44,655 nucleotides of DNA from an uncultured bacterium (GTDB lineage: Bacteria; Deinococcota; Deinococci; Deinococcales; Trueperaceae). The notes beneath the pieces were generated by a model. The model made no database searches. It saw nothing but the letters and a program-made list of their open reading frames with translations, and was not told the DNA's origin. The translations under genes and the position numbers were made by a program. The DNA is taken from NCBI GenBank assembly GCA_964411415.1, contig CAYPKV010000002.1, positions 1-44,655 of the forward strand. Reading direction: 5' to 3'. Below, piece by piece: positions 4,501 to 21,302 of this stretch. Positions within the stretch are counted from its first letter, which is position 1, and the number at the start of each line of letters is the position of its first letter.

Positions 4501-4932
4501 GCCAGGAACCTGGCAGTCGAACGCTGCAGGCAGCAGCAACTGCTGACCGTCCGGCAAGGTCACGGTCACGTCTGAGATGCCGCCCTGGGCGCCCGCACCA
4601 AGCACCCCGCTGACCTCATTGCCGATCTGCACGAGAACGTTCGAAGCCGGAGGCAGCATGACAGCGCGCTCTGATTCCACTGCCAGCGCTAACTTCTCAA
4701 GCGGAACCCCGCACACCTGCACCAGCAGGTTGTCCCGCTGCCCCGGACCGCTGCCGACCAGCCGGTGGAAGTTCGCGCCGCTTAGCGTAATGCGGGTGTC
4801 TTCGGTCACAGCCCCGCTCGCAGGGTCAACGCTCGAAAGTGTGGCCTTGGGCAACCAGCCCTCGCGGCCCACGCATGAGACCAGCAACAGGGTCAGGACT
4901 ATTGGCGCCAGAGCGCGTCGGGGCCGACTCAT
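1528..4932 (-). CDS. 1134-aa surface lipoprotein: IPT/TIG domain, about 6 PKD domains, Big_2 domain and SBBP-type beta-propeller repeats
   Basis: The signal and lipobox read LLLVS|C. There are six repeats of the PKD signature (PLTVTFDxxxSxDxDGxIxxYxWDFGDG-like). A Big_2-like segment reads VASVSSSGEVTALADGTATITATS. The C-terminus carries repeated 'DxxGNIYxTG' propeller motifs. The ATG at 4932 overlaps the upstream stop (ATGA). Confidence 0.85.
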   Translation of the reverse strand: MSRPRRALAPIVLTLLLVSCVGREGWLPKATLSSVDPASGAVTEDTRITLSGANFHRLVGSGPGQRDNLLVQVCGVPLEKLALAVESERAVMLPPASNVLVQIGNEVSGVLGAGAQGGISDVTVTLPDGQQLLLPAAFDCQVPGVSVSISTDVASGPAPLTVTFDGGGSTSATGVISEYQWDFGSDATGAGETVSHTFTDVGIHEVTLLVIDDTGASGESTVQIEVVNSAPVAVVSVEPASGTADAPVTVTFDAGASSDADGDIITYDWIIDGLPAGTGATVSHTFGRSGNYDVNLVVTDSRGAISSSRLHYSVGNSAPVAVFTTTPDTAIGAGPLPVTFDASGSHDPDGAITGYQWDFGDGATGTGSTVSHTFMSGTYTVTLSVEDDEGHTSSVTGQVLVDNTPPLAQFTVSVDPATGPAPLTVQFDASESSDADGSIVSYAWEFGTSGTGSGVSPEHTFLRSGNQTVTLTVTDNEGATATADLLVIVSNASPVAAASVTAVDGYEVSFSAAGSYDPDGGPLTYSWDVADGSSIITAETFTHTYSQSGDYEVTLVVTDSESGTDSRQVVARPINFAPTAIANTDPSPASGYAPLSVNLAATPGSLDQHGGEIISYEWKLAGDVISDSAVHDHVFSSEGVHTVTLTVTDNEGTADSVDVAVEVLASEVQTVWINEGDQGLLGGEVVSLTATVVGLGNFDLAVEWQSSDPGVASVSSSGEVTALADGTATITATSVQNPAVSDSVQVSVRIPLGTALDERILDVAVDQDDNIYLTGSVNSAGGATGTDILLIKLDPQGRLLWRETYGTPYADSARAIALDPVDNSIILAGETHGNLETGAIGNSHDLFLMKINAADRTPEWTYQYGGPGWDLANDLIVDSYGDIYFTGAFNRGANSNCPADCGRIIVGHADSTGTSVNVVLHGHNTAGTGEAIALDNDGNIVVAGNSLGVFNDQIQGGSGAYLMEVDPVNLAERTKLVFIDSSAMDYADEIHVAPDGSIIWVGRDNTLYNQYASTVILVFNPDYSERSARWFEPMGGYYSVAGSFLDSDGFLVIGANLSGVAMELSRLNMSNLETVASVQVAVPASPEPPYAHLRMEGVAKQTDGTIVAAGYTDANYFEPNQGDDDPFVWIVDPW

Positions 4933-9252: not shown

Positions 9253-9429
9253 GGGGCCTCCTGTTACAGCAGTGTAGCGCGGCAGCAGCAGTGACTGTCC
9301 CGTTGCATTGTGACGGCTGTGATGCGGTGGTGGCGGCCGTGGTGCTATTAGTAAGATACATACAACAGCGCCCTGGACGTCGGTCACTTGCGGTTCCAGG
9401 GAGTAACTCAGGCCGGAGGTGGGGTGCCG

Positions 9430-10914
9430 ATGTCGAAAGGTGCAGCAAACAGGTTCAGGCTCTCAGTGCTGACCAGGCTGGCAGTTGCAGCAGTACTGTT
9501 CGTTGCAGGCTGCACCGTACAGCCGGCTGCCGCACCCGCAGAACGAGCGGCTGATGCGGACCGGCCGGCGACCACCATCACCGTGTTCCTGGCGGAAAGT
9601 GATACCCGTGGGTCCATCGCGGAGAAGTTCGGCGGTGATGTGCTCGTTTGGCATGGACCGGGCGACGTTACCTCAGAACCGACTGACGCAGGTACTGACT
9701 ACCTGCCTTTCGCTGTGCTTACAGTCACTGAGCCGCTCACCAGTCTCCGCACCGCTGCAGCCTGTCCTGAACAGCCGGTACCCGGCGATACCTGTGTGGA
9801 ACAGAACTCTCCAGGCTTGCTGGCCGGCGCAGACCAGTCACATATCTGGGGATCAGGCCGGTCGAACCACTTCGACACCGTTGTCATCGAAGGCCGCTCG
9901 TCACTCTGGAATGAGGGCAGGTCATCCCTGTGGAACGAAGGGAACGTCTTCGTCGGTCTCCCGGAGAACACCGACCTGTGGAGGCGCACCAACCTGCGTA
10001 TGGCGCAGGACCGCTCCATGGCGGGCGAACGGCTCGGTGACGGCATCGTCGTCGCCGTCATCGATACGGGCATCGACCTCGAGCACCCCTGGCTGGTACC
10101 GGCGCTGACGGATCCGTCGACGTGGCTTGACCTGGTTGACGGTGACACCTGGCCGATGGAACACGGTTCGTTCACCGACCAGGCAACACCAGCCTACGGA
10201 CACGGCACAGCCATCGCCGGGGTGATCCGCCAGATCGCTCCCGCCGCGCAGATAATGCCAATCAGGGTGCTTTACCCTGACGGTCACGGTTACGTGAGCG
10301 ACGTCGTCGCAGCCATTGCGCACGCGATCGAACACGGCGCTGACGTCATCAACCTGTCACTCGGCGGGCGGGTCCGCAGCGAGGCGCTCAACCAGGTGCT
10401 CGGCCTGGCCACCCAGCAGGGTATCCACGTGGTCATGTCCGCCGGCAACACCGGCCTGCTGCCGGCAGCCCGCGACAGGGGACAGGTCACCTGGCCCGGC
10501 CAGGACAGCAACGACGTCCACATACCAGGCCATCACTACCGCCTGACGGTCACCAGTGTCGGAAGCGGCGACCTCAAGTCAGACTTCGCAGCCCACGGTC
10601 CGGCAGTCGGCCTGGCAGCACCGGGTGAACTGGTCTGGTCATTCGCCCCGGACGACCAGCTGGCAGCCTGGTCAGGTACGTCACTCGCCGCGCCCATGGC
10701 AGCAGGAGCCCTTGCCCTGGCGCTCGCTGAGGACGCAGCAGGACTCCTGGCGGCACAGCCGCGTGACCTGGTCGGCATCCTTGCCAGATCCGGCAGCCAG
10801 CTGTACGCGGACGGTGCGAACAGCGATTACCGCGAAGGCTCGCTGCTCGGCTACAGCCGCCTGGACTTCTGGGAGTTCCTCCACGCCGTGCTTGAACAGA
10901 ACAGCGATGAGTGA
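9430..10914 (+). CDS. Subtilisin-like S8 serine protease lipoprotein
   Basis: GGAGGTG precedes the ATG at 9430. The lipobox is LFVAG|C. The catalytic residues are D (VAVIDTGID), H (HGTAIAG), N (SAGNTG) and S (GTSLAAPMAAG). Confidence 0.9.
   Translation: MSKGAANRFRLSVLTRLAVAAVLFVAGCTVQPAAAPAERAADADRPATTITVFLAESDTRGSIAEKFGGDVLVWHGPGDVTSEPTDAGTDYLPFAVLTVTEPLTSLRTAAACPEQPVPGDTCVEQNSPGLLAGADQSHIWGSGRSNHFDTVVIEGRSSLWNEGRSSLWNEGNVFVGLPENTDLWRRTNLRMAQDRSMAGERLGDGIVVAVIDTGIDLEHPWLVPALTDPSTWLDLVDGDTWPMEHGSFTDQATPAYGHGTAIAGVIRQIAPAAQIMPIRVLYPDGHGYVSDVVAAIAHAIEHGADVINLSLGGRVRSEALNQVLGLATQQGIHVVMSAGNTGLLPAARDRGQVTWPGQDSNDVHIPGHHYRLTVTSVGSGDLKSDFAAHGPAVGLAAPGELVWSFAPDDQLAAWSGTSLAAPMAAGALALALAEDAAGLLAAQPRDLVGILARSGSQLYADGANSDYREGSLLGYSRLDFWEFLHAVLEQNSDE
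9889..9945 (+). repeat. Tandem in-frame duplication encoding EGRSSLWN-EGRSSLWN-EGN in the protease pro-region
   Basis: The two 24-nt units, gaaggccgctcgtcactctggaat and gagggcaggtcatccctgtggaac, encode identical peptides. They differ in 6 of 8 codons, and every difference is synonymous. Confidence 0.9.
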
Positions 10915-12853
10915 GCCAGCCGGCGAAGCGCTGACACAGACTGTGACGACCGCCGAACAACTCCTGGAGCGTGCCCAGGCAGCCTGGACCGGTGACGACC
11001 CTGCCGTGGCCAGGGAACTTGCCGGGCAGGCGCTTCAGCACCCGGATGTGCAGCGGGAAAGCAGTCTTGAGTTCGAAGCCAGGATGCTCCTCGGCCGTAT
11101 CCAGCGCGCCAGCGGCAGCCTCGCTGAAGCTGCAGCCAGTTTCGCCAGCGCGGCTCAGGCTGCCCGGCGGAGCGGGGACGTCGGCAGGGAACTCAGTGCC
11201 ATCAACCTGCAGGCAAGTGCCGTACACGGCCTCGGACAGCAGCGGCGCGCACTGGGGATGCTGGAACGCGCCCTGCAGACTGCCATCGCAGCCGGGGAAC
11301 TCGACCGTGCCGCCGGCATCAACAGCAACATCGGTGAACTGCGCCGCGCAGCCGGCAACTATCCCGAGGCGCTCGAAGCACTGGTCGCCGCGCAGGAACA
11401 CTACGACGCCCAGGAAACTGTCAGCCGCGCAAGCGCCGTTAACCTCATCAACCTCGGCAACCTGAACCAGGACCTGGGCAGGCCCACAGAAGCACGCCGC
11501 CTGTTCAGCCAGGCGCTGGAAGTCGGCAGCGAACTGCCGGATGATGAACTGATTGCGGTCGCGCTGAACAACCTGGCCAACTGCGACCTGGCTGCAGGCG
11601 ACTACACAGTGGCAGGCGAACGGTTCCGGGAAGCACTGCGGCTGGCCCGGCACCTGTCATCCGCGGCACTGGAGATCGACAACTTAGACGGCCTGGGTCA
11701 GGTGCTGTGGGCACTGGGAGACCATTCCACGGCGGCCGGCGTCTACGCGGAAGCGCTCGAAGTGGCTCGCACGCTTGACGACAGGGAAGGGCAGCTTGAC
11801 GCACTGGTGAACCTGGCTGAAGCTGCCGGCAGGCTCGGTCAGCATGCCGATGCCATAACGAGCCTGCTCGAGGCACTCGGGCTGGCCGAGGAACTCGAGC
11901 TGCGCAGCCGGCAGTTCGAGATACACCGGATGCTGTCAGATGAGTACGAAGCAGCCGGTGATCCGTGGGGCGCGCTGCGCCACTCTCGACTTTTCCACGC
12001 GCTTGAGAGCGCCGTCTTCAACGAACAGAACGAGGAGCGGATCAGTGAGCTGCTCGTACGCTTCGAACTCGACCGGTCCCAGCACGAAGCTGAGAAGTAC
12101 AGGATACGCACCGAGATCATGCAGGAAGCCATCGAGCAGGCGGAGGACCGTATCCGCGAACGCACGGCTGAACTCGAGGAAGCGCATCTGGACCTGGTGG
12201 CCCGCCTGGCACTGGCAACCGAGTTCCGCGACGACAATACTGGCCAGCACATCCATCGGGTCGGCCGCTCAGCTGCAGTCCTGGCCTGGCTGCTCGGTTT
12301 CAGTCGCGATGACTCAGCCTTGCTGTACTTCGCAGCGAAACTGCATGACGTCGGAAAGATCGGCATCCCTGATGCGGTACTGCGGAAACAGGGCCGCCTG
12401 ACGGGCGAAGAGCAGCAGCTGATCCACGATCACACTGTCACCGGAGCGCGGTTGCTCTCAGGCGGCCGCTCGCGGTTGTTGAAGACCGCAGAACAGGTAT
12501 GCCTCGCTCACCACGAACGTTTCGACGGCAAAGGTTACCCGTTTGGCCTGGCAGCCGCGACCATACCCTGGTGCGCACGCATCGTCACCGTAGCTGACGT
12601 GCTCGACGCTCTGATCCATGAGCGGCCCTACAAGGAAGCGTGGCCCCTCAATGAAGCGCTGGCGGAAATCCGCAGCCAGGCGGGACGCCAGTTCGATCCG
12701 GATGTCGTGGAAGCGTGCCTGCAGGCGTTCGGCGGCCCGGCTGACCTCAGTCCGTTCGACACCTTGAGCACACGTGAAGAACTGGACGAACTGCTTGAGA
12801 ACATCAGGCCATGGCGCCTGAACGGTGACGTGGAACGCGTCAGCGAATGGTGA
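10907..12853 (+). CDS. TPR-repeat, coiled-coil and HD-GYP domain protein (putative c-di-GMP phosphodiesterase)
   Basis: The ATG at 10907 overlaps the protease stop (ATGAGTGA). The N-terminal half contains TPR-like repeats. The HD-GYP motifs are 'KLHDVGKIGIP' and 'HHERFDGKGYPFGL'. Confidence 0.85.
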   Translation: MSEPAGEALTQTVTTAEQLLERAQAAWTGDDPAVARELAGQALQHPDVQRESSLEFEARMLLGRIQRASGSLAEAAASFASAAQAARRSGDVGRELSAINLQASAVHGLGQQRRALGMLERALQTAIAAGELDRAAGINSNIGELRRAAGNYPEALEALVAAQEHYDAQETVSRASAVNLINLGNLNQDLGRPTEARRLFSQALEVGSELPDDELIAVALNNLANCDLAAGDYTVAGERFREALRLARHLSSAALEIDNLDGLGQVLWALGDHSTAAGVYAEALEVARTLDDREGQLDALVNLAEAAGRLGQHADAITSLLEALGLAEELELRSRQFEIHRMLSDEYEAAGDPWGALRHSRLFHALESAVFNEQNEERISELLVRFELDRSQHEAEKYRIRTEIMQEAIEQAEDRIRERTAELEEAHLDLVARLALATEFRDDNTGQHIHRVGRSAAVLAWLLGFSRDDSALLYFAAKLHDVGKIGIPDAVLRKQGRLTGEEQQLIHDHTVTGARLLSGGRSRLLKTAEQVCLAHHERFDGKGYPFGLAAATIPWCARIVTVADVLDALIHERPYKEAWPLNEALAEIRSQAGRQFDPDVVEACLQAFGGPADLSPFDTLSTREELDELLENIRPWRLNGDVERVSEW

Positions 12854-12860
12854 CGGCGGT

Positions 12861-14180
12861 TCAGTTCACCCTGCCCCAGTAACTGAGGAGCAGACCAGTC
12901 CGGTCGCTCTGCTGAAGCTTCTCGACCAGGCTGCTGACGTAGTTCGCAGCCGTCTTCGCTGATATGCCCAGTTCACTGGCGATCTGGCCGTTCTCCAGCC
13001 CCCTGGCCACCAGGCGCCACACTTCCCGTTCCCTGGGCAACAGACCCGGGTCATCGAGGATCGGTCCGGAGTAAACCCGGTGCCCGGCAGCGACACGCTC
13101 AAGGTGACCACGCAACTGACGGATGCCTTCCGGTTCCACCACAAGCCCGTCGGGCTGCAGGTCCTGAAGGTCGAGCAGGTAAGCGATGGAGCTCTGACCG
13201 GTCACCACGAGCGAACCGGTACTGACGGACGGCAGCGTAGAGAGCGCATAACCAAGCGGCAGATCCAGAATCAGGGTCAGTGGCACATCGAAATGCCAGT
13301 CCTGCATGAGGTTGCGCGCCAGGTTGCCGGCCGTGACGGAACCGGAGAGGATGTTGAGGTTATGGACCGGCGCACGGACTCCGACCACGTTGCTGACCGG
13401 GACCTCTACCCGGTTCGGGCGTGCAGTCAGGAGCCGCGCCTCTGCCAGGCGGAGTACCTCAAGTCCAGGTGCTTCGGTGAGCTGCACCCACACGTGTTTG
13501 AGGGCCAGTCCACTGCGCAGCAGGAAAGCATCGAAGCGCGGTCGTTCACGGGCGGGCACGAGTAGCACCATCCGCTGCTCATCGACGCTGTAAGCCTGGT
13601 CGTCCTCGGTCAGCATGCCACGGAGCCTGTGGGCGAACGTACGCAGTGCCAGGGGACCACCAGCGTCGGGTCCGGAGTTCAGCGCGATGATGGCCAGCAC
13701 GTAATCGGACCGTGTTCCGCTGCGCAGGTCGCGTTCCAGCATCTTCATCCTGGGCAGACCGGTGAGCCAGTCACGTCTCGCCTGGCGCGCCAGTTCCTCG
13801 GCATAACCTGCTGCAGTCATAAGCGACAGCAGCCGGTCACTGTACAGGGACGCCAGCAGCTGGGCTCCGGGCGTATCCGGGATGTCGTGGGTGATGAGCC
13901 AGAGCGGCTCGGGTGGACCCATGTATAGCTCGAGCAGCGATGGCCCGTACTCAGGCAGAACGACCTTGCCCTGCTTGAACGTATCGGTGGCGTGCAGCTG
14001 ATCCAGGACCGTGAGGCTGGCTCCGGGCAGCAGGCGCTCCAGAGCCGGAGCGGCCTGATCCCTCAGTCCGTCGAAATCCAGGGTTGCGAGCGGCGCAATT
14101 GCCGCGGCAACCCGTTCATGTATCGACAGGTGGTCGGCCGGCAGGTTGGGACCGGAATCGGTGGCGGATGAAACTGCCAT
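12861..14180 (-). CDS. Regulator paralog 1: N-terminal domain, degenerate GGDEF-like domain, receiver-like domain and LuxR-type HTH
   Basis: The ORF extends to a TTG at 14219, but I prefer the ATG at 14180. 'RRDWLTGLP' marks the start of a GGDEF fold, and the GGDEF position reads 'SVDEQ'. A receiver-like segment reads 'LTLILDLPLGYAL...LVVTGQ'. The C-terminal HTH is 'REREVWRLVARGLENGQIASELGISAKTAANYVSSL'. Confidence 0.7.
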   Translation of the reverse strand: MAVSSATDSGPNLPADHLSIHERVAAAIAPLATLDFDGLRDQAAPALERLLPGASLTVLDQLHATDTFKQGKVVLPEYGPSLLELYMGPPEPLWLITHDIPDTPGAQLLASLYSDRLLSLMTAAGYAEELARQARRDWLTGLPRMKMLERDLRSGTRSDYVLAIIALNSGPDAGGPLALRTFAHRLRGMLTEDDQAYSVDEQRMVLLVPARERPRFDAFLLRSGLALKHVWVQLTEAPGLEVLRLAEARLLTARPNRVEVPVSNVVGVRAPVHNLNILSGSVTAGNLARNLMQDWHFDVPLTLILDLPLGYALSTLPSVSTGSLVVTGQSSIAYLLDLQDLQPDGLVVEPEGIRQLRGHLERVAAGHRVYSGPILDDPGLLPREREVWRLVARGLENGQIASELGISAKTAANYVSSLVEKLQQSDRTGLLLSYWGRVN

Positions 14181-14245
14181 GCTCCAGCATACGCATGGCA
14201 GTGAGTGTCGAAGTGGCAATGGTCACGTACGGCTTCGGTGTCAGC

Positions 14246-15649
14246 TCACTGGTTGGGGCCAAGCTGGTCCCAGTAGGCCAGAGCTACTTCACTGCGACTG
14301 TTCAGGTGCAGCTTGTCCCTGAGACCAGTGAAGTAGTTGGCTGCCGTGCGCTCGCTGATGCCCATCACCGTTGCGACCTGCGAGTTGCTGAGGCCGCGGG
14401 CAATGAGCCGCCACACCTCCCGTTCGCGGGGGAACAGTCCGCTGCCTTCGATGACCGGACCCGCGTAGACCCGTTCGCCCCGTGCGATTGTCTCAAGGTG
14501 GTTCCGGAGTTCCTGCACGGCGAGCGTACCCACGACCAGCCCTTCGGGTTCATGATCCATCAGGTCATAAAGGTACCCGCTGGAAGCACCATCGGTCACC
14601 GTCAGCACGGGGCGGCGAACCGTCGCGAGCCTCTCCAGGGCGAAACCCGTCGGCAGATCCAGGATCAGGCTTATCGGCCTGGAGAACTGCCAGTCCCTGG
14701 TCACGTGTTCGAGCAGGGCCCGGCCTGTTGACGTGCCGGACAGCCGGGTGAGCGGGTGAAGTACGGGCCGGATGCTGCGCCGCACCGGTTCTGCACTCCT
14801 CGCCCGACCCGCCTGGTCCCGGCGTGGATCGCGACCCGTCAGGCGTGTAAGTGCCAGGTTGACCACGTCGCTGCCGGTGGCTTCACCGGTGAGCGCATAT
14901 GCCAGGCGGGCCTCGGGTGCCAGGCGACTGACCGCCGCCTGCAGACGGTCCAGCTGGGCCTCCGGAGTCAGTACTGCCGTGATGTTTCCTGCCAGCTGGA
15001 ACGCGCGGTCTTCCTCGGCAAGCGTCAGACGCAGCGAGTGCGCGAACCAGCGTTTGCGCAGCTGCTGCATGCGCTTACCGTGGCTGCTGTCCAGCGCAGG
15101 CAGGTCGATGAGCAGCACTGCTAGGGGTGGTGCAAACGGATCCAGCTCCTGGAGTGCTGCTTCGAGGCTCTCAGCCCAGTGGAGCCCGGTGAGCCAGTCA
15201 CGGTGACTCTGCCGGCCCAGCTCCTCGGAGTAGCCGCTGAGGTGCAGGGCACGCTGCAGCCGGTCGAAGAACAGGTCCAGGATGACCGTCACTGCCGGGT
15301 CGTCAGCGAAGCCGCTGGCGCTGAACCACACTGGCTCTGGCGGTCCCAGGTAGACGTCACTGTAGACGCACGTGCCGTCTTCGAGCCTCACCAGTCCGCG
15401 CTGGTCTTCGCTGCTGGAGCCGGTGCCGGTAGGCCGGGAGTGCTCCGTGCTCACCTGCAGCCGTGCCTCAGGCACAAGCTGCTGCAGGGCATGCGCAGCG
15501 CGGATCAGTACCTGATCGAAAGTCAGCTCGTCGAAACCTCCGGTAGCGTCCACCACCAGCCGGTAGTACTGTTCAAGCTGTTCCAGCTCCTGCTGGTCAT
15601 TCATATCAGTGCCTGTGGCCTTCTGATCTGCGTTGTTCACACCCTGCAT
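14246..15649 (-). CDS. Regulator paralog 2: same architecture as 12861..14180
   Basis: The sequence contains 'HRDWLTGLH'. The GGDEF position reads 'LAGNI'. The receiver-like segment is 'ISLILDLPTGFAL...VLTVTDG'. The HTH is 'REREVWRLIARGLSNSQVATVMGISERTAANYFTGL'. It is colinear with paralog 1 along its whole length. Confidence 0.7.
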   Translation of the reverse strand: MQGVNNADQKATGTDMNDQQELEQLEQYYRLVVDATGGFDELTFDQVLIRAAHALQQLVPEARLQVSTEHSRPTGTGSSSEDQRGLVRLEDGTCVYSDVYLGPPEPVWFSASGFADDPAVTVILDLFFDRLQRALHLSGYSEELGRQSHRDWLTGLHWAESLEAALQELDPFAPPLAVLLIDLPALDSSHGKRMQQLRKRWFAHSLRLTLAEEDRAFQLAGNITAVLTPEAQLDRLQAAVSRLAPEARLAYALTGEATGSDVVNLALTRLTGRDPRRDQAGRARSAEPVRRSIRPVLHPLTRLSGTSTGRALLEHVTRDWQFSRPISLILDLPTGFALERLATVRRPVLTVTDGASSGYLYDLMDHEPEGLVVGTLAVQELRNHLETIARGERVYAGPVIEGSGLFPREREVWRLIARGLSNSQVATVMGISERTAANYFTGLRDKLHLNSRSEVALAYWDQLGPNQ

Positions 15650-15678
15650 TCAACTCGCCCTGTCTCAGTCTGCGATCG

Positions 15679-16956
15679 TCAGAAGCGCAGGCGCACGCCG
15701 CCGCCGAGGGCAGCGAGGCCGTCACCTGAACCATCGAAGTACGGCCGGTAACGGCCTTCGATGAACACTCCGAAGTTCTTCGCGAAGCGGTAGCCGGCCC
15801 CCAGGATCAGTTCCCCGAAGAGAGCAGTACCGGTCTCCTCGAAGCTGGCACCCATCCCGACGCCCGCGTAACCATCAACGCTGTCGACCGTAGCACGGTA
15901 CGTGACGGCTCCGGAGACACTAAGTGGAACCTCACCAAAGCCGAAGTCGACGGTCAGGCGTGCTCCCAGGTTGCCGACGATGGCGTCATGGCCGACCGCT
16001 ACCTGGCCGACGAGACCGCCGTTGGGTGCACTGCCGTACAGCGCCAGTGAGATGTTGAACGGTGCGCGGTCGGGAAGCAGGCTGTCCTCCAGGCGGGTGA
16101 TCCGCTCCTCATGATCGGCCAGTACAGCCCTGATCTCACTCAGGTCAGTTTCCATGCCTTGGACTCGCGCCTCCAGCAATGCCAGGTGACCGGACAGTGT
16201 GCCAACCCGGTTCTCCAGTTCGCTGAGCAGGCTGTCCTGGGCCATGTTCCCACGTTCCAGTGCTGCCACGCGGGCTTCCAGGGCCCCCAGCTGGTCACGG
16301 AGGCTGACGCCAAGGGCCATCTCATCGTGCAGCTGGTCAGTCAGAGCGTCCAGCCTGGCTGCCAGAGCAGAGGTGTCAGCGTCGTCTTCAAGTGCAGCAA
16401 GTCGGTCGCGGATCGCGTCCAGTTCGGCATCGGTAGCGTCGGCACGGCCCTCCAGCGCCGCGATCGCCAGCCACAGTTCACTGGCGTCGAACACCGCCGG
16501 GCTGGCCTGCAGCACCGCGATGGCGTTCCAGAGTTCAGCGAGTTCAGCCTCGTGCCGGTCGAGGGCAGCAGCGGCATCAGCCAGGCTGCCGTCGTGTTCA
16601 GCGACCAGTGCCGTCAGGCCACCGAGTTCGTCCTGCAACGCCGAGACTGCCTGGCGCAGCATGGCGATCTCGTCCGGATCGAACGCTTCCAGGTTGAAGC
16701 TGCTGATCATTCGGGCGATGACGACGGCCATCTCGGCGCGGGTGATGTCCTCGGGCCAGCGGTACGTGCCGTCGGGGTAACCGATGTAGATGCCGCGGCT
16801 GACGACGAGTTCGACTGCGTCGTCGGCCCAGGTTCCGGGCGCCTCAGCGATGGCACGGTTGACCTGGGCGGGCGTGCCCGGGGTCACGGGTATCTGTGCG
16901 AACGCCGAACCGGCGAGCGCCACAGACAGTGCGAGTACGGCAAGGGATTTTCTCAT
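15679..16956 (-). CDS. SLH domain, long coiled coil and C-terminal mini beta-barrel outer-membrane tether (OmpM/SlpA-like, short form)
   Basis: AAGGAG precedes the ATG at 16956. The signal peptide is ...AGSAFA|Q. The SLH motif reads 'WADDAVELVVSRGIYIGYPDGTYRWPEDITRAEMAVVIARM'. There are about 190 aa of A/L/E/D-rich heptads. The last 128 aa alternate hydrophobic residues and end ...GGGVRLRF. Confidence 0.8.
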   Translation of the reverse strand: MRKSLAVLALSVALAGSAFAQIPVTPGTPAQVNRAIAEAPGTWADDAVELVVSRGIYIGYPDGTYRWPEDITRAEMAVVIARMISSFNLEAFDPDEIAMLRQAVSALQDELGGLTALVAEHDGSLADAAAALDRHEAELAELWNAIAVLQASPAVFDASELWLAIAALEGRADATDAELDAIRDRLAALEDDADTSALAARLDALTDQLHDEMALGVSLRDQLGALEARVAALERGNMAQDSLLSELENRVGTLSGHLALLEARVQGMETDLSEIRAVLADHEERITRLEDSLLPDRAPFNISLALYGSAPNGGLVGQVAVGHDAIVGNLGARLTVDFGFGEVPLSVSGAVTYRATVDSVDGYAGVGMGASFEETGTALFGELILGAGYRFAKNFGVFIEGRYRPYFDGSGDGLAALGGGVRLRF

Positions 16957-17051
16957 GATCGGCTCCTTGGCTTTCTGTTGGGCATGAGCTGCCCCTCCCG
17001 CGGTTGCAGCGGGCCAGAAACGTGTCTTTCGTGTGGTGGTCTGGCAGTGGT

Positions 17052-17090
17052 CCTTCCTGGGGCGGCCAGCAGGTGGCGGCCCCAGGAAGT
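17052..17090 (-). terminator. Hairpin after the 1136-aa gene (stem CTTCCTGGGGC/GCCCCAGGAAG)
   Basis: An 11-bp perfect inverted repeat starts 8 nt beyond the stop at 17098. The SLH gene, with its own SD, follows 95 nt later. Confidence 0.5.
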
Positions 17091-17097
17091 GTGAGGC

Positions 17098-20000
17098 TTA
17101 CGGGAGGAGTACGTTCAGTACGGTCACGTCGTTCTCGTTGAACTCGAGGCCGAGGACCCGGAAGATGCCGTTGTCCAGGAGGCCGCTGAGCAGATCGTCG
17201 AGGGGCAGGTTAGCTCCGACGCTGCCGTTCGTGATGCCGAGCACGTCGTTCACCAGGCTGGTCACCACACCGAGCAGCTCGTTCAGGAGCGTGTTGACTG
17301 GCAGCAGACCGCCAAGCGCTCCATCGATGTCGACCTGCGCATCCAGCTCCACTTCGAGGTCGGCGAGGAGATCGGTGATCAGCGTGCCGAGCGAGGCAGA
17401 CGGTACTGTCTGGGTCTTGGGGTACGGGCCGGTGAAGGTGATTGTGTTTGCCCCGACGGTCCTGGAGCTGTCGGCACGGGCGAGGACGTCTGCGGTGACT
17501 TCGACACTGGCGAGCGGCAAGCCGAGGAGCGTCGCGGCGATGTCCAGATCGACTGTGGCGATCGTGCCGAAGTCCGCGGTCACGGGTGTGGTGCGGCTGC
17601 GGTCGAAGAACACAACGGGATCGACGCTGCCCAGGTGGAGGTGCGCCAGCGTGCCGAGCGAGGCGATCGTGACGGAGCCGTCAGTTTCGTTGATCGCTGT
17701 GACTTCGCCCTCGAAGCCACCGACTTCAGCGAACAGGTCGAGGTCAGTGACGGTCAGGTCGAGGTTGAGGTCCAGCAGCGCGAGGGCGTCCAGCAGACCT
17801 GCTACGAGTCCCAGGAGGCCGCCGACCAGTCCACTGCCTTCATCGAGGCTGTCAAGGCTCAGGCCGAGACCGTTCAGTTCCACTGCCAGCCTGATGCCGG
17901 CAGAGCGGAAGCTGGTCGAGCCGTCAGTGCTGCCCAGTCGGTCAACCCGGGCCACGGTGATGACCGGGGGCTCAACGATCTGCAGGTGGATACGTGCGAG
18001 CGCGCCAGCACCCAGGCCGTCGATGACACCATCCAGGCCGAGCAGCGGCAGCAGGCCACCGACGCCACTGAGGCCGATCTCGACGGGTTCAGGAGCGCCA
18101 ACCACGTTCTGGGCGTTGAACAGCTCGAGGAAGAGTGCGACCAGGTCAAGGACACTCAGTTCGATGTTGCGGAGGCTGAGCAGGTCTTCAGGATCGACGT
18201 TGATCAGATCACCGAGTTCGATCGGCAGGTCTTCGGCAGGCAGCCCGTCGAGCAGGTCCTGAAGCGGAAGGGCAGCAGCCGTGCCGGACACCACGTCCAG
18301 GAGTGCACCGAGTACGTCAGCCAGATCGACTTCGTCCAGGAGGACGATTTCCGGGCCGGTGGCGCCGAGGTTCAGCGACAGGACTTCGAGCAGGTCGAGC
18401 AGGTCCACCTGCGTATTGAGGAGCGCGTCATTGCTGAGGACCGTCAGGTCGGCGTTCTTGCCGAGCAGTCCGGCCAGCAGCGGTGCGAGGAGGCCGCGCT
18501 CGTCAGCATCGAGTTCGATGAGCGTTGAGCCCGTACGGACGACGGCGGTGGTGATGCTCGCCGGGTCGATGACGGTGATCGTCACGAGTTTGACGTCGTA
18601 ACCGCCGGCGCTGTCAGCCGCAACCAGTACGGCCTGGTACTGACCTGCATCGGCATAGGTGTGGTTGTCGCTGCCGCTGGCAGCTCCTTCAGTGGGGACG
18701 CTGCCGTCGCCGTAGAACAGCCAGGTGCTGACCGGCAGGCCAGCCGGGCTCTCTGCGGTCCAGTCGAAAGTGACTTCAAGCGGCATGTCACCTGAATCAG
18801 GTGTTGCAGTGAACGCGCTGATCACGGGGCTGTCGGCGTCTGCTGCGGGCAGGACCGTGACGGTGATGCTCTCCCGGGCGGTACGGTTGTCCTCATCCTG
18901 AATGACGAGTGAGGGTGTGTAGACGCCGGGCTGGCGGTACTGGTGCGAGAAGCTGCCGTCGTCGCAGTCGAACACGGTGTGCTCCGCTGAGCCGTCGCCC
19001 AGGTCGAGCACGCAGATGGTGCCCAGATCGGCGGTGATGCCCCATTCGAACGAGACAGTCAGTGGTGCGGTCCCGGCAGCAGGGTCAGCTTTGAACTCGT
19101 CGATGGTCGGGGGCTGGCCGCTGCCGCTGCCGCTCACGGACACGGTCGTGCTGCGCTTGATGACAGAGCCGTCGCTGAGCAGTGCAGTGAGTTCAGCTGT
19201 GTATGCTCCGGCGGTGGCGTAGTTGTGGTCCGCAGAAGATGCGAGCTCAGTCGGGGTGATCTCCGGCGTCAGGTCGCCGAAATCGATGCTGATGCTTTCG
19301 ACGAGGTCAGACGGGTCCAGGATGAGCCAGTGGAAGGTGGTGTCGAACGGTGCGGCGCCACCTGCAGGATCAGCGAGGAACGCTGCTACCGCCGGCTGGA
19401 CGGGTGCCGGATCGCTGCTGACTTCTACGGTCACTGAACGGGTGCTCGTGCCGGCGGCGTTGCTGGCGGTGAGCGTGTAGGTAGTGGTGGCGTCCGGTGC
19501 GACGCTGGTGCTGCTGTTCGGTGCGACGTCGCCGATGCCCTGATCGATGGTGACCGTGTCGGCACCGACGATCACCCAGCTGAGGGTGCTGGTCTGGCCA
19601 GGTGCGATGCGGGCGGGATTGGCGTTGAAGCGTCCGATGAGTGGCGCTCCGGCCGGGTCCTCACGGACGTAGACCGTGACGGTGCGGCTGCTCGTACCGG
19701 CGCTGTTGGTGGCCCGCAGTGTGTAGGACGTCGTTGTGGTCGGGCTGACTTCCGCAGTGCCGGTGGCGCTTACCGTTCCTACTGTCGGAGAGATGGTGAT
19801 GCTGTCAGCACCGGATACGTTCCAGCTCAGGGTGCTGACGTCACCGCGTTCGATTCCTTCGGGATCAGCGCTGAAACTGGTGATGAGCGGCCGGCCGCTG
19901 TCGTCGTCCGAACCGCGGACAGTGACGGTGGCAGTCGCCGTTACGGTGCCGTGGGCGTTGCTGGCCGTCAGCACGTATTCGGTAGTGTCTACGGGTGAGA

Positions 20001-20508
20001 CCGTGCGGTTGCCGGTGTTGCCGGCTACCGTACCGATGCCCTGGCTGATGGTGATGTCGTCTGCGCCGGCCACGTCCCAGGAGAGGACGCTGCTCTCGCC
20101 GGTGCTGATTTCAGTCGGGTCTGCCTGGAACCTGGCGATGAGCGGAGGGTCGTCAGGCTGGCGGACTGAGACGGTCACCTCAGCCTCAGTGCTGCCACGG
20201 CGGTTGGTGGCCACGACCGTGTAAGTGGTCGTCTCAGCGGGCGTAACCTCTCTGGTTCCTTCCGCGTCGACAGCATCCCCGAACGGCTGCAGAACGACAG
20301 AGTCGACTTCACCTGTGACCAGCCAGTTCAGAGTAGCGGATTCACCTGCGGTGATCGCCTGTGGTGCCGCGCTGAACTCCACTTCTGGTGCGGCTCCTGG
20401 CAGTCTCACCTGAGCGCAGGCTGCCAGCAGGACCACCAGCGCCAGCATCAGCAGTGGCTGTATTGCCCTGAAGGTTCTTCGCGATTGACTGCTGCCCATG
20501 CGTTGCAC
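17098..20508 (-). CDS. 1136-aa surface lipoprotein: 4 Ig-like repeats, 3 PKD-like domains and a 484-aa Leu/Asp/Gly/Val-rich C-terminal region
   Basis: AGGAGGT lies 6 nt upstream of the GTG at 20508. The lipobox is LLAA|C. Four roughly 95-aa repeats carry the pattern 'xGxSxxLSWxVxGADxxTIxxGIGxV...TTTYTLTAxNxxGT'. Three PKD-like units carry 'APLxVxFxW'. I cannot recognise the C-terminal region. Confidence 0.85.
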   Translation of the reverse strand: MQRMGSSQSRRTFRAIQPLLMLALVVLLAACAQVRLPGAAPEVEFSAAPQAITAGESATLNWLVTGEVDSVVLQPFGDAVDAEGTREVTPAETTTYTVVATNRRGSTEAEVTVSVRQPDDPPLIARFQADPTEISTGESSVLSWDVAGADDITISQGIGTVAGNTGNRTVSPVDTTEYVLTASNAHGTVTATATVTVRGSDDDSGRPLITSFSADPEGIERGDVSTLSWNVSGADSITISPTVGTVSATGTAEVSPTTTTSYTLRATNSAGTSSRTVTVYVREDPAGAPLIGRFNANPARIAPGQTSTLSWVIVGADTVTIDQGIGDVAPNSSTSVAPDATTTYTLTASNAAGTSTRSVTVEVSSDPAPVQPAVAAFLADPAGGAAPFDTTFHWLILDPSDLVESISIDFGDLTPEITPTELASSADHNYATAGAYTAELTALLSDGSVIKRSTTVSVSGSGSGQPPTIDEFKADPAAGTAPLTVSFEWGITADLGTICVLDLGDGSAEHTVFDCDDGSFSHQYRQPGVYTPSLVIQDEDNRTARESITVTVLPAADADSPVISAFTATPDSGDMPLEVTFDWTAESPAGLPVSTWLFYGDGSVPTEGAASGSDNHTYADAGQYQAVLVAADSAGGYDVKLVTITVIDPASITTAVVRTGSTLIELDADERGLLAPLLAGLLGKNADLTVLSNDALLNTQVDLLDLLEVLSLNLGATGPEIVLLDEVDLADVLGALLDVVSGTAAALPLQDLLDGLPAEDLPIELGDLINVDPEDLLSLRNIELSVLDLVALFLELFNAQNVVGAPEPVEIGLSGVGGLLPLLGLDGVIDGLGAGALARIHLQIVEPPVITVARVDRLGSTDGSTSFRSAGIRLAVELNGLGLSLDSLDEGSGLVGGLLGLVAGLLDALALLDLNLDLTVTDLDLFAEVGGFEGEVTAINETDGSVTIASLGTLAHLHLGSVDPVVFFDRSRTTPVTADFGTIATVDLDIAATLLGLPLASVEVTADVLARADSSRTVGANTITFTGPYPKTQTVPSASLGTLITDLLADLEVELDAQVDIDGALGGLLPVNTLLNELLGVVTSLVNDVLGITNGSVGANLPLDDLLSGLLDNGIFRVLGLEFNENDVTVLNVLLP

Positions 20509-20833
20509 TTGATTACCTCCTGAAAAGGTTGCGGAGTCTCAGCCGAACCGCCGCTGAGCGGATTGCGGCAGGTTCCTGCAGCTGAGTTACTCTGCAGCCA
20601 ATCGTCGTCCGTGTGTACCGGACAGCGTTAGAGGGTTACTCAAACACCGGGTGTGGTTTCCGCCCGGCATGACTGGGAGAATCTCCCACCCAAGCTTCAG
20701 ATGTGCGTCAGGGACGTGCGTACTGCAGCGATGTGGAAAACTCCACGTTCGGGCTTTGAACCGTGAATCTCGCCTGCAGCGGGGCCGCCTGAGCAGTATG
20801 CTGGGCGCATCACTGCATCACGAAAGGGGTCTC

Positions 20834-21286
20834 ATGAGGCTCATCCGAATACTGGCAGCACTGCTGATCGTCAGCACAGGCAGTGCCCTTGCGTACAACT
20901 CACTCACGGTCGGCCTGCAGGCCGAGGCGCACCAGTTCTTCGTCGGTTACAACGCCCACGCCGTGTTGCCGCTGGCGACTGTGCCGGGTGGCACCGGCGG
21001 CAGGGCCTTCTCGGCACGCGTCGACTTCTCAGCTGGTGATGTGGTGTACGCCGGCCTCGCTGCCGTGATCAGCGGCGCAGGACCCGGCCTTCAGCCGTTC
21101 GCTTCTCTGGGTGGCGGTGCAGCGTTATGGGGTGGACCGCTGCTGCCAACAGTCCAGGGCCTGCTTGGAGTGCGGGTGCAGCTGACAGGTGGACTGTGGG
21201 CGACAACTCAGTTCCAGATCCGCTTCGCGACCCGTGCCGGGCACCTGACCCCCAGCCTTGGTGTCGGCCTGGAGTACAGCTTCTGA
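20834..21286 (+). CDS. Small outer-membrane beta-barrel protein (mini-barrel copy B)
   Basis: The ATG at 20834 follows GAAAGGGG. The signal peptide is MRLIRILAALLIVSTGSALA|Y. The sequence ends ...LGVGLEYSF with a terminal aromatic residue. It is colinear with 4929..5393. Confidence 0.7.
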   Translation: MRLIRILAALLIVSTGSALAYNSLTVGLQAEAHQFFVGYNAHAVLPLATVPGGTGGRAFSARVDFSAGDVVYAGLAAVISGAGPGLQPFASLGGGAALWGGPLLPTVQGLLGVRVQLTGGLWATTQFQIRFATRAGHLTPSLGVGLEYSF

Positions 21287-21302
21287 TCTCAGTTTTCCTG
21301 TG

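What the first reader, a model, noticed from the sequence alone, without database searches (positions are those of the whole stretch)
12861..15649. Two tandem paralogous regulators: N-terminal domain, degenerate GGDEF-like domain, receiver-like domain and LuxR HTH
Two adjacent same-strand genes of about 440 and 467 aa are colinear along their whole length.
- Each has an RDWLTGL segment, the hallmark start of a GGDEF fold.
- At the GG(D/E)EF position they carry SVDEQ and LAGNI, so neither should synthesise c-di-GMP.
- Next comes a receiver-like segment (L(T/S)LILDLP...V(V/T)TGQ/TDG...GLVV...L...H) that keeps an Asp at the acceptor-like position but lacks the N-terminal acidic pair.
- Each ends in a clear LuxR/NarL-type HTH (REREVWRL[VI]ARGL).
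I cannot name a characterised family with this four-part arrangement. Degenerate GGDEF domains (PelD, PopA) and LuxR-type regulators (VpsT) are established c-di-GMP receptors. The genes lie directly beside a TPR/HD-GYP gene and downstream of a giant adhesin-like gene and an SLH tether gene. This suggests a dedicated c-di-GMP-responsive transcription factor pair that controls the envelope genes.
Basis: partly seen in the sequence, partly recalled or inferred. Interest (0 to 1): 0.7.

Follow-up and report, generated by a model that had tools for sequence, protein, structure and literature searches.

The report
Twin LuxR regulators with dead cyclase
Two neighbouring genes encode sister DNA-binding regulators made of a small sensor, an inactivated GGDEF (cyclase) domain, a crippled receiver domain and a LuxR DNA-binding end; the design is real, conserved and uncharacterised, but the sequence does not support the proposed direct c-di-GMP binding through any known site.

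Summary
RegA (14246..15649, minus strand) and RegB (12861..14180/14219, minus strand) are colinear paralogues (36% identity, E 2e-82).

Profile and structure searches confirm four parts:
- a small, weakly GAF-like N-terminal domain with a signalling helix;
- a GGDEF-fold domain;
- a receiver-like domain;
- a LuxR/GerE HTH.

The GGDEF ancestry is firm. Stand-alone 250-290 aa relatives carry the same N-terminal domain and an intact GGDEF, and intermediate family members still pass Pfam's GGDEF threshold.

In RegA and RegB the A-site, the metal and guanine ligands and the Arg of the RxxD I-site are all lost. The VpsT c-di-GMP motif is absent. The receiver keeps the Asp but lacks the acidic pair, the Lys and one beta/alpha unit.

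One A-type and one B-type gene sit together in all 7 loci examined. They always follow a PKD/DUF8293 surface lipoprotein gene and an SlpA/OmpM-like SLH connector gene. In 6 of 7 loci they lie opposite a TPR-HD-GYP gene (S8 protease gene seen in 5).

Best reading: a non-enzymatic LuxR transcription-factor pair, restricted to Trueperaceae-like Deinococcota, that probably controls this envelope cluster. Any c-di-GMP input would be indirect or non-canonical. This is a new variant of a known kind, of moderate interest.

The parts
14246..15649 (-). RegA, the A-type regulator (467 aa; an alternative start at Met16 is possible)
   Evidence: ORF. Pfam GerE. AF2 model with mean pLDDT 81.6. Falls in the A clade of the family tree.
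15299..15613 (-). RegA N-terminal sensor-like domain (residues 13-117) with the near-invariant GPPEP motif
   Evidence: Domain-only AF2 model with pLDDT 93.2. Foldseek gives only weak GAF-like matches (best E 9e-3, TM about 0.5). No PDB sequence hit.
15212..15298 (-). RegA long signalling helix (residues 118-146) that leads into the RDWLTGL motif
   Evidence: Helix 118-146 in the model. ELxRQ...DWLTGL is the best-conserved stretch in this half of the family alignment.
14834..15211 (-). RegA degenerate GGDEF-fold domain (residues 147-272); AGNIT replaces GGDEF and AEED replaces RxxD
   Evidence: The slice profile hits 25 GGDEF chains in PDB (TpbB E 5.6e-7, SadC E 1.4e-6). Foldseek finds sensor-GGDEF proteins. 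Aligned with intact relatives.
14456..14761 (-). RegA receiver-like domain (residues 297-398) with four beta/alpha units, invariant Asp331, no acidic pair and no Lys
   Evidence: Model secondary structure. DesR and spr1814 alignments. Foldseek hits to LiaR, DesR, VraR and RcsB.
14270..14443 (-). RegA LuxR/GerE helix-turn-helix (residues 403-460)
   Evidence: Pfam PF00196 at 42.7 bits, residues 407-456. PDB hits to NarL, GerE and DosR DNA-binding domains.
12861..14180 (-). RegB, the B-type regulator (439 aa from ATG 14180; the ORF extends to TTG 14219). Colinear domains: N-terminal domain 13872..14171, helix 13785..13871, GGDEF-like 13425..13784, receiver-like 13062..13367, HTH 12876..13049
   Evidence: BLASTP against RegA, E 2e-82 over the full length. 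Pfam GerE at 44.4 bits. On its own it hits DesR and spr1814 into the receiver. Falls in the B clade.
15679..16956 (-). SLH + coiled-coil + C-terminal barrel-like protein (SlpA/OmpM-type connector between outer membrane and cell wall), 29 bp upstream of regA
   Evidence: Pfam SLH. D. radiodurans SlpA 7zgx at E 4e-15 and OmpM-type SLH proteins. Present upstream of the pair in every locus that reaches far enough.
17098..20508 (-). 1136-aa PKD/Ig-repeat protein with a lipoprotein-type signal peptide (DUF8293 in its orthologues); first gene of the cluster
   Evidence: Pfam PKD_4 and I-set. Orthologues carry PF26942.
10907..12853 (+). TPR + HD-GYP phosphodiesterase gene, convergent on regB (start codon uncertain; the ORF opens at 10556)
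   Evidence: Pfam TPR_12 and HD_5. HDVGK and HHERFDGKGYP motifs. Conserved in 6 of 7 loci.
9388..10914 (+). S8 subtilase gene upstream of, and overlapping, the HD-GYP gene
   Evidence: Pfam Peptidase_S8. Found next to the HD-GYP gene in the window, L001, L004, L061 and L064; the L062 contig ends within the HD-GYP gene.
20673..20689 (-). Imperfect palindrome GTGGGAG-ATT-CTCCCAG inside a sequence block conserved upstream of the DUF8293 gene; a candidate operator or promoter element
   Evidence: The block aligns across 6 loci. The motif GAGWWNYKCCCAG sits at the same relative position in 5 loci, with a weaker copy (two or more mismatches) in the sixth, L062. No link to RegA or RegB has been shown.
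17053..17089 (-). GC-rich 16-bp-arm hairpin just after the DUF8293 stop codon; a possible terminator or attenuator ahead of the SLH-regA-regB unit
   Evidence: Inverted repeat with 94% complementarity. Sequence. No T-run follows, so the terminator scan does not call it.

Best explanation
RegA and RegB are a conserved pair of paralogous, non-enzymatic, one-component transcription factors of the LuxR/NarL class.

Each protein fuses two modules that also exist separately in Deinococcota:
- a small sensor-diguanylate-cyclase (weakly GAF-like N-terminal domain, signalling helix and GGDEF domain);
- a short LuxR regulator with a truncated, phosphorylation-incompetent receiver.

After the fusion the GGDEF domain lost every known catalytic and nucleotide-binding residue. 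It has nevertheless been kept under purifying selection as a structural pseudoenzyme domain.

Inferred mechanism:
- The N-terminal domain and helix dimerise, as in sensor-GGDEF enzymes. Because the A and B types always co-occur, the dimer may be an A/B heterodimer.
- A signal sensed by the N-terminal domain, and/or contact with the neighbouring TPR-HD-GYP protein, changes how the dead GGDEF and receiver-like domains pack.
- That change frees or aligns the two LuxR HTHs on DNA.
- The most likely targets are their own cluster: the PKD/DUF8293 surface lipoprotein gene and the SlpA/OmpM-like SLH connector gene.

Shown: the architecture, the loss of motifs, the origin by fusion, the conservation of the pair and the conserved gene order.

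Inferred: DNA binding, dimerisation, the targets and the nature of the signal.
For: - Paralogy: E 2e-82.
- LuxR HTH: Pfam GerE above cut-off in both proteins.
- Folds: AF2 mean pLDDT 81.6. Foldseek returns sensor-GGDEF proteins at E 4e-9 and NarL-type regulators at E 2e-7.
- GGDEF homology: 25 of 26 PDB hits of the slice profile are GGDEF chains. Family members P0027 (36.8 bits) and P0022 (24.1 bits) pass Pfam's GGDEF cut-off of 23.8.
- Separate modules: stand-alone 250-290 aa relatives have the same N-terminal domain and an intact DxLTGLxNR, GHaaGD and GGDEF (Pfam E 1e-18 to 1e-22). Stand-alone proteins of about 175 aa with the same receiver-like domain and HTH occur in Thermus aquaticus and Meiothermus.
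- Motif loss in RegA and RegB.
- Purifying selection: among A orthologues the GGDEF-like domain is 55% identical against 21% for the linker.
- Pairing: the tree has separate A and B clades, with one of each in all 7 loci.
- Gene order: the cluster is conserved while its flanks differ. The gaps between the SLH gene and regA (29 bp) and between regA and regB (26-65 bp) fit co-transcription.
Against: - No experiment exists and no cultured host was found.
- Regulation of the neighbouring genes rests on gene order alone.
- The conserved palindrome upstream of the DUF8293 gene is not tied to these proteins. Further copies of it in the window are not conserved in other loci.
- Domain packing in the model is uncertain (pTM 0.48), so the proposed relay is conjecture.
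- The N-terminal domain has no significant structural match (best E 9e-3), so its role as a sensor is assumed by analogy.
- Several Arg residues conserved in the dead GGDEF domain (R200, R207, R235, R242, R269) could form an unrecognised nucleotide-binding site.
Confidence: 0.6

Rival explanations
1. RegA and RegB are direct c-di-GMP receptors, binding through the degenerate GGDEF domain (as PelD and PopA do) or the receiver-LuxR part (as VpsT does). They switch the envelope genes in response to c-di-GMP levels set by the neighbouring HD-GYP enzyme.
For: - An apparently active HD-GYP gene (HDVGK and HHERFDGKGYP motifs) lies opposite the pair in 6 of 7 loci.
- The acidic residue at the D position of RxxD is mostly kept, as EED or EDD.
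- By spacing, R242 falls where I recall PleD R390 to lie (own knowledge; not verified here), and it is at least 90% conserved.
- Several other Arg residues in the domain are conserved.
Against: - The Arg of RxxD is absent in all 28 family sequences. PopA binding depends on an intact I-site (PMC5052742).
- The A-site, the metal ligands and the guanine ligands are lost.
- No W[F/L/M][T/S]R motif is present.
- Even the intact cyclase relatives lack RxxD.
- One locus (L007) keeps the pair and the envelope genes but has no HD-GYP gene.
Confidence: 0.2
2. Trigger-enzyme model. c-di-GMP is sensed indirectly. The TPR-HD-GYP protein holds RegA and RegB through their dead GGDEF domains and releases them while it is occupied hydrolysing c-di-GMP. 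The precedents are PdeR acting on DgcM and MlrA in E. coli, and the physical binding of the HD-GYP protein RpfG to GGDEF proteins.
For: - HD-GYP and GGDEF domains can bind each other through the GYP motif, independently of catalysis (PMC3749722).
- Trigger phosphodiesterases control transcription factors by direct contact, and HD-GYP proteins have been proposed as candidates for this role (PMC5052742).
- The HD-GYP protein here carries a long TPR protein-interaction region and its gene is conserved next to the pair.
- A dead GGDEF domain kept under selection fits a docking role.
Against: - This rests on gene neighbourhood and analogy only.
- The GGDEF-side DxD motif reported for RpfG partners could not be located with the tools. 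If it is the beta1 DxD, it is not kept in RegA (ID-L-P) or RegB.
- L007 lacks the HD-GYP gene.
Confidence: 0.15
3. RegA and RegB are orphan NarL-type response regulators. An unlinked histidine kinase phosphorylates the conserved Asp (D331 in RegA), and the N-terminal half only modulates this.
For: - The Asp at the end of beta3 is invariant in 28 sequences.
- The Thr at the end of beta4 is mostly kept.
- The C-terminal half is clearly homologous to NarL-family regulators.
Against: - The acidic pair after beta1 is replaced by S/C-G.
- The beta5 Lys is replaced by Gly in the A type and Glu in the B type.
- One beta/alpha unit is missing.
- Pfam Response_reg does not match.
- No kinase gene lies in any of the 7 loci.
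Confidence: 0.05

Closest known systems
PdeL (YahA) of E. coli: a LuxR-HTH + EAL trigger phosphodiesterase and transcription factor
   Same: A c-di-GMP-enzyme-type domain is fused in one polypeptide to a LuxR-type HTH, so the signalling domain can gate DNA binding directly (PMC5052742).
   Different: - PdeL uses an EAL domain, not a GGDEF domain.
- PdeL is catalytically active.
- Its HTH is N-terminal.
- It has no receiver-like domain, no N-terminal sensor and no paralogous partner.
- Here the enzyme-type domain is dead and lacks the known nucleotide sites.
PopA and PelD: degenerate-GGDEF c-di-GMP receptors
   Same: A GGDEF fold that has lost the GG(D/E)EF catalytic motif and been kept for a regulatory role.
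   Different: - PopA binds c-di-GMP through an intact RxxD I-site (PMC5052742). In RegA, RegB and all 26 relatives the Arg is missing.
- PopA and PelD have no DNA-binding domain.
VpsT and CsgD: LuxR/FixJ-type biofilm regulators with atypical receiver domains
   Same: An atypical, probably unphosphorylated receiver-like domain followed by a LuxR HTH. They control cell-surface and matrix genes.
   Different: - VpsT binds c-di-GMP at a dedicated motif, with a sixth helix on a full receiver (PMC3359988). I know the motif as W[F/L/M][T/S]R from memory of the literature.
- That motif is absent here.
- The receiver here is truncated to four beta/alpha units.
- VpsT and CsgD have no sensor-GGDEF half.
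- VpsT matches the family profile only in the HTH (E 9e-3).
The DgcM-MlrA-PdeR module of E. coli, and the RpfG (HD-GYP)-GGDEF complexes of Xanthomonas
   Same: A GGDEF protein acts on transcription or on partner proteins by contact rather than by synthesis, and is controlled by a phosphodiesterase that binds it (PMC5052742, PMC3749722). The conserved neighbouring TPR-HD-GYP gene would fit this scheme.
   Different: - In those systems the components are separate proteins and the GGDEF domains are active cyclases.
- Here the GGDEF domain and the transcription factor are fused and the GGDEF domain is dead.
- No interaction has been tested.
Stand-alone N-terminal-domain + GGDEF cyclases (for example P0040, P0050, P0142) and stand-alone receiver-like LuxR proteins of Thermus and Meiothermus (for example P0046, P0166)
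   Same: They are direct sequence relatives of the N-terminal and C-terminal halves of RegA and RegB. They match family-profile positions 15-270 and 280-445 respectively.
   Different: - Each is half of the architecture.
- The cyclase relatives keep every catalytic motif.
- None is characterised.
- In the two neighbourhoods examined, the cyclase relatives are not next to LuxR genes.

Membership tests
LuxR/GerE HTH family (Pfam PF00196) | C-terminal four-helix HTH that scores above the Pfam gathering threshold | tested here: met
   RegB 44.4 bits and RegA 42.7 bits against a cut-off of 23.5. PDB profile hits to the NarL, GerE and DosR DNA-binding domains.
GGDEF domain superfamily (PF00990), by fold and descent | GGDEF fold and detectable homology to GGDEF domains | tested here: met
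   - Pfam does not detect the domain in RegA or RegB themselves.
- The family slice profile hits 25 GGDEF chains in PDB (best E 5.6e-7).
- Foldseek finds sensor-GGDEF proteins at E 4e-9.
- Family members P0027 (36.8 bits) and P0022 (24.1 bits) pass the Pfam cut-off of 23.8.
Active diguanylate cyclases | GG(D/E)EF A-site plus the beta1 metal Asp and the xxNDxxGHxxGD guanine-binding loop | tested here: not met
   - AGNIT (RegA) and DEQRM (RegB) stand at the GGDEF position.
- The loop is shortened and not conserved.
- No member of the A or B clade has GG[DE]EF.
Degenerate-GGDEF c-di-GMP receptors (PopA and PelD type) | Intact RxxD I-site upstream of the degenerate A-site | tested here: not met
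   The position reads (T/A/G/L/P/S/H/D)-E-[ED]-[DE]. Arg is absent in all 28 aligned sequences, and only the acidic residue is kept. The requirement for an intact I-site is taken from PMC5052742.
Degenerate-GGDEF c-di-GMP receptors (PopA and PelD type) | Measured c-di-GMP binding | not testable with these tools
   This needs DRaCALA or ITC on purified protein.
Response-regulator receiver domain (PF00072) | (beta/alpha)5 fold with the acidic pair after beta1, the phospho-acceptor Asp after beta3, Thr/Ser after beta4 and Lys after beta5 | tested here: not met
   - Homology to NarL-type receivers is supported from helix 3 onward (DesR E 2e-15 with the HTH; E 0.012 for the receiver slice alone; Foldseek).
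- The Asp (D331) is invariant and the Thr is mostly kept.
- The acidic pair is replaced by S/C-G.
- The Lys is replaced by G or E.
- Only four beta/alpha units are modelled.
- Pfam gives no Response_reg hit.
VpsT-type c-di-GMP-binding LuxR regulators | W[F/L/M][T/S]R c-di-GMP motif and a sixth helix on the receiver | tested here: not met
   A regular-expression search found no match in any of the 28 family sequences. The model shows no extra helix between helix 5 and the HTH. The motif definition is from my own knowledge of the VpsT literature; PMC3359988 confirms that a motif and a sixth helix exist.
GAF domain | GAF fold with a significant structural or sequence match | tested here: inconclusive
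   - The domain-only model is confident (pLDDT 93.2).
- The best Foldseek hits are GAF or PHY domains at E 9e-3 to 0.3 with TM about 0.45-0.6, and none reaches E 1e-3.
- There is no PDB sequence hit and no Pfam hit.

The most novel reading that the evidence does not exclude
RegA and RegB form an obligate A/B heterodimeric transcription factor. A GGDEF-derived pseudoenzyme domain is the switch. It is read either by the neighbouring TPR-HD-GYP protein acting as the first HD-GYP trigger phosphodiesterase, or by a new non-I-site nucleotide pocket lined with the conserved arginines. The system couples second-messenger state directly to expression of the outer-membrane-to-cell-wall connector and a surface Ig-repeat protein in Deinococcota.
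Probability: 0.15. Interest if true: 0.75.

Novelty: new variant of a known kind. Interest (0 to 1): 0.5.

Why it matters
Transcription factors that carry a GGDEF-derived domain in the same chain as a DNA-binding domain have, as far as my searches show, not been described. The nearest case, PdeL, uses an active EAL domain.

This family preserves the steps of its own evolution: intact small cyclases, partly decayed four-domain proteins, and fully dead paired paralogues. That makes it a clear example of an enzyme becoming a regulatory pseudoenzyme.

The conserved placement makes one idea testable: whether HD-GYP proteins can act as trigger enzymes on GGDEF-fold partners. The pair sits beside an HD-GYP gene and in front of an SlpA/OmpM-type connector gene and a large surface protein gene.

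It also offers a first lead on how Deinococcota regulate their unusual cell envelope.

The limits are real. The family is small and known only from metagenomes. No ligand, DNA site or phenotype is known.

Tried and rejected
- Pfam and NCBIfam on RegA and RegB found only the HTH. Domain assignment therefore needed family profiles and structure prediction.
- A PDB profile search with the N-terminal slice gave nothing. Foldseek on the domain-only model gave only sub-threshold GAF-like hits. I report 'GAF-like, tentative' rather than GAF.
- Rfam found nothing on the whole window (gathering threshold) or on 12700-21400 (E-value mode). In particular there is no c-di-GMP riboswitch ahead of the surface-protein gene.
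- The sigma-70 promoter and intrinsic-terminator scans of 12700-21000 gave nothing useful.
- Operator search: my first pattern was one base too long and missed the site itself. The corrected 13-mer gives 7 window hits against 3 expected. Only the site upstream of the DUF8293 gene is positionally conserved in other loci, so I rejected the extra sites near the S8 and HD-GYP genes as evidence of a regulon.
- BLASTN of the upstream block against the rest of the window found no second copy.
- 'Rosetta stone' test: I asked whether stand-alone cyclase relatives lie next to stand-alone LuxR relatives. They do not in the two neighbourhoods read.
- Five literature searches for a GGDEF-LuxR, Truepera c-di-GMP or Deinococcus SLH regulator found no characterised homologue. 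One further query was rejected for syntax.
- I considered whether the pair is a decaying duplicate. I rejected this because both clades are kept in all 7 loci, and the dead domain is far better conserved than the linker.

Full report
**Observation**

RegA is 14246..15649 (467 aa, ATG). RegB is 12861..14219 (452 aa from a TTG). RegB more probably starts at the ATG at 14180 (439 aa), as in the 439-aa relative P0015, which starts at the equivalent Met. RegA could also start at Met16, as its 84%-identical relative P0002 does. The two proteins align over their whole length at 36% identity, E 2e-82. The tandem-paralogue observation is therefore real and far beyond chance.

**Domain content**

Pfam and NCBIfam see only the C-terminal LuxR/GerE HTH (44.4 and 42.7 bits, cut-off 23.5). 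I therefore collected the family and built profiles. The family comprises 14 clusters at 90% identity among 5.8 billion proteins. A profile search of 1.84 billion cluster representatives at 50% identity returned a further 14 near-full-length members (P0015-P0028, E 1e-161 to 1e-96) beyond three already found.

An AlphaFold2 model of RegA on the family alignment is confident (mean pLDDT 81.6). Its inter-domain packing is not (pTM 0.48). The model shows:

- an N-terminal alpha/beta domain (residues 13-112);
- a long helix (118-146);
- an alpha/beta domain (147-271);
- a disordered linker (274-294);
- a Rossmann-like domain with four beta/alpha units (297-396);
- the HTH (407-459).

Foldseek against PDB returns two groups of matches. 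One is sensor-helix-GGDEF proteins: the phytochrome-cyclase 5llx at E 4e-9, DosP and PA0861. The other is full-length NarL-type response regulators: LiaR at 2e-7, DesR, VraR, RcsB and EvgA.

The profile searches agree:

- A profile of the middle slice alone hits 26 PDB sequences, 25 of them GGDEF domains (TpbB 5.6e-7, SadC 1.4e-6).
- The whole-family profile aligns its last 120 positions to DesR from receiver helix 3 through the HTH at E 2e-15.
- The receiver slice alone is weak, but its top hits are all NarL-type receivers (DesR 0.012).
- RegB on its own also aligns into the receiver of spr1814 and DesR.
- The N-terminal domain, modelled alone at pLDDT 93.2, gives only sub-threshold GAF/PHY-like matches (best E 9e-3, TM about 0.5) and no sequence hit. 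I call it GAF-like only tentatively.

**The GGDEF ancestry**

The profile search found 250-290 aa proteins that match family positions 15-270. They have the same N-terminal domain (the GPPEP motif and ...AGYREELERQARTDWLTGLxNRR...). It is followed by a fully canonical GGDEF domain with D-x-D-x-LK-x-x-ND-x-x-GH-x-x-GD, R-x-GGDEF and the C-terminal ADxRMY motif (Pfam E 1e-18 to 1e-22).

Within the four-domain family a third clade of single-copy genes, from Truepera and Trueperaceae MAGs, is intermediate:

- P0027 keeps INAREGYMAGD and GGATF and scores 36.8 bits on Pfam GGDEF.
- P0022 scores 24.1 bits.
- Several members keep DWLTGLPNRRSF.

**What has been lost**

In RegA, RegB and their orthologues everything needed for catalysis or for canonical nucleotide binding is gone.

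- GGDEF is AGNIT in RegA and DEQRM in RegB.
- The beta1 metal Asp and the GH..GD loop are not conserved.
- The I-site RxxD reads (T/A/G/...)-E-E/D-D/E, with no Arg in any of 28 sequences.
- The VpsT-type W[F/L/M][T/S]R motif does not occur.

The dead domain is nonetheless not decaying. Among A-type orthologues it is 55% identical. The N-terminal domain is 48%, the receiver-like domain 60% and the linker 21%.

**The receiver-like domain**

- The Asp after beta3 (D331) is invariant and the Thr after beta4 is mostly kept.
- The acidic pair after beta1 is replaced by S/C-G.
- The beta5 Lys is replaced by Gly in the A type and Glu in the B type.
- One beta/alpha unit is missing.
- No kinase gene lies nearby in any locus.

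The same truncated receiver plus HTH exists as a stand-alone protein family of about 175 aa. Members include Thermus aquaticus and Meiothermus proteins annotated generically as NarL/FixJ regulators. The four-domain regulators therefore look like a fusion of two modules native to Deinococcota, followed by loss of the cyclase site.

**Distribution and context**

Full-length relatives in the species-representative genome collection come only from MAGs: Trueperaceae or Truepera MAGs and two unnamed 'uncultured bacterium' MAGs. No member of the family carries a functional name.

A neighbour-joining tree separates an A clade and a B clade. Each of the 7 loci examined (window, L001, L004, L007, L061, L062, L064) has exactly one of each, in the order A then B.

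The pair always follows two genes:

- a PKD/Ig-repeat gene for a protein of about 1140 aa (DUF8293 in its orthologues), with a lipoprotein-type signal peptide;
- an SLH gene for a protein of about 425 aa.

The SLH protein resembles D. radiodurans SlpA (7zgx, E 4e-15) and OmpM-type connectors between outer membrane and cell wall.

In 6 of 7 loci a TPR-HD-GYP gene converges on regB. An S8 subtilase gene was seen beside it in 5; the L062 contig ends within the HD-GYP gene. L007 lacks both genes. The HD-GYP protein has both signature motifs, HDVGK and HHERFDGKGYP (motif definition from PMC3749722). Flanking genes differ between loci, so this is a conserved module.

The short gaps between the SLH gene and regA (29 bp) and between regA and regB fit co-transcription. 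A strong GC hairpin without a T-run follows the DUF8293 stop codon (17053..17089).

A sequence block upstream of the DUF8293 gene is conserved across six loci. It includes the imperfect palindrome GTGGGAG-ATT-CTCCCAG at 20673..20689. It is a candidate promoter or operator, but nothing links it to RegA or RegB. Rfam finds no riboswitch.

**Mechanism**

The best-supported reading is a pair of non-enzymatic one-component LuxR transcription factors. The sensor-helix-GGDEF half serves as a dimerising, signal-relaying pseudoenzyme module. The receiver-like domain is a phosphorylation-independent adaptor to the HTH. Strict co-occurrence of the A and B types suggests a heterodimer. The envelope genes in the same cluster are the likely targets. 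All of these steps are inferred.

I rate it about 0.2.

An indirect route is plausible by analogy. HD-GYP proteins can bind GGDEF domains through the GYP motif independently of catalysis (PMC3749722). Trigger phosphodiesterases such as PdeR and PdeL control transcription by contact (PMC5052742). The TPR-HD-GYP neighbour could play that role here. This is untested, and L007 manages without it.

A classical phospho-relay is unlikely.

**Comparison and novelty**

- PdeL (LuxR HTH + active EAL) is the closest known design principle.
- PopA and PelD are the closest degenerate-GGDEF proteins, but the defining I-site test fails.
- VpsT and CsgD are the closest receiver-LuxR regulators of surface genes, but the defining c-di-GMP motif test fails.

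The proteins do qualify as members of the LuxR/GerE HTH family and, by descent, of the GGDEF and receiver superfamilies. I found no description of this four-domain family.

I rate it a new variant of a known kind. The architecture is real, conserved and uncharacterised, and its evolutionary origin is clear. It is confined to an uncultured lineage and has no known ligand, DNA site or phenotype. Interest 0.5.

Noticed in passing
P0040, P0050, P0065, P0080, P0107, P0133, P0142 (proteins); loci L065:981-1733, L066:6001-6756: A family of stand-alone 250-290 aa proteins has the same GPPEP-motif N-terminal domain as RegA and RegB, fused to an apparently fully active GGDEF domain without an RxxD I-site. 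Their gene neighbourhoods (LysW/LysX lysine pathway, ribosomal protein cluster) look Thermus-like. They are the likely ancestors of the N-terminal half of the regulators.
   Followed up: partly
P0036-P0075; Thermus aquaticus ALJ92192.1 and Meiothermus WP_297861112.1: A large family of proteins of about 175 aa consists only of the truncated receiver-like domain (LVLDxPxGFAL...VVT...YLRDLL...GL) and a LuxR HTH. Pfam sees only GerE in them, and databases call them NarL/FixJ response regulators although the acidic pair and the Lys are missing.
   Followed up: partly
window 20560..20700 (minus strand): A block of about 120 nt upstream of the DUF8293 gene is conserved across six loci whose proteins are only about 50% identical. 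It has a palindromic GGGAG-N3-CTCCCAG element, an invariant C-CTA-C core (CCCTAAC in most loci) about 45 nt downstream of it, and a 5' leader of roughly 130-190 nt before the start codon. No Rfam family matches.
   Followed up: partly
window 17053..17089: A 16-bp-arm GC-rich inverted repeat (94% complementary, 5-nt loop) lies immediately after the DUF8293 stop codon and has no T-run. It may be a terminator or attenuator that separates the large gene from the SLH-regA-regB unit.
   Followed up: no
window 15679..16956 (minus strand): The SLH protein is a short (425 aa) SlpA/OmpM-like protein with a signal peptide, an SLH domain, a long coiled coil and a C-terminal region ending ...GGGVRLRF, as outer-membrane barrels do. 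It is about the size of the SLH-domain chains 8bys/8bym (428-435 aa), not of the 1167-aa Deinococcus SlpA.
   Followed up: partly
window 9388..10914 and 10556..12853 (plus strand): The HD-GYP ORF opens 359 nt inside the S8 protease gene. The likely start (MSEPAG, 10907) overlaps the S8 stop codon by 8 nt, which suggests translational coupling of the protease and the TPR-HD-GYP protein.
   Followed up: no
window 1528..4932 (minus strand): A second very large (1134 aa) surface-type protein has six PKD domains, Big_2/Big_9 domains and beta-propeller repeats, about 12 kb from the cluster. No copy of the conserved upstream block was found near it.
   Followed up: no
L005:10001-11344 and L006:7099-8442 (P0014): The single-copy, less degenerate family members from Truepera-type MAGs are not next to DUF8293, SLH or HD-GYP genes. 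They sit beside an M23 peptidase/SH3 gene. The link to the envelope cluster is therefore specific to the duplicated A/B lineage.
   Followed up: partly
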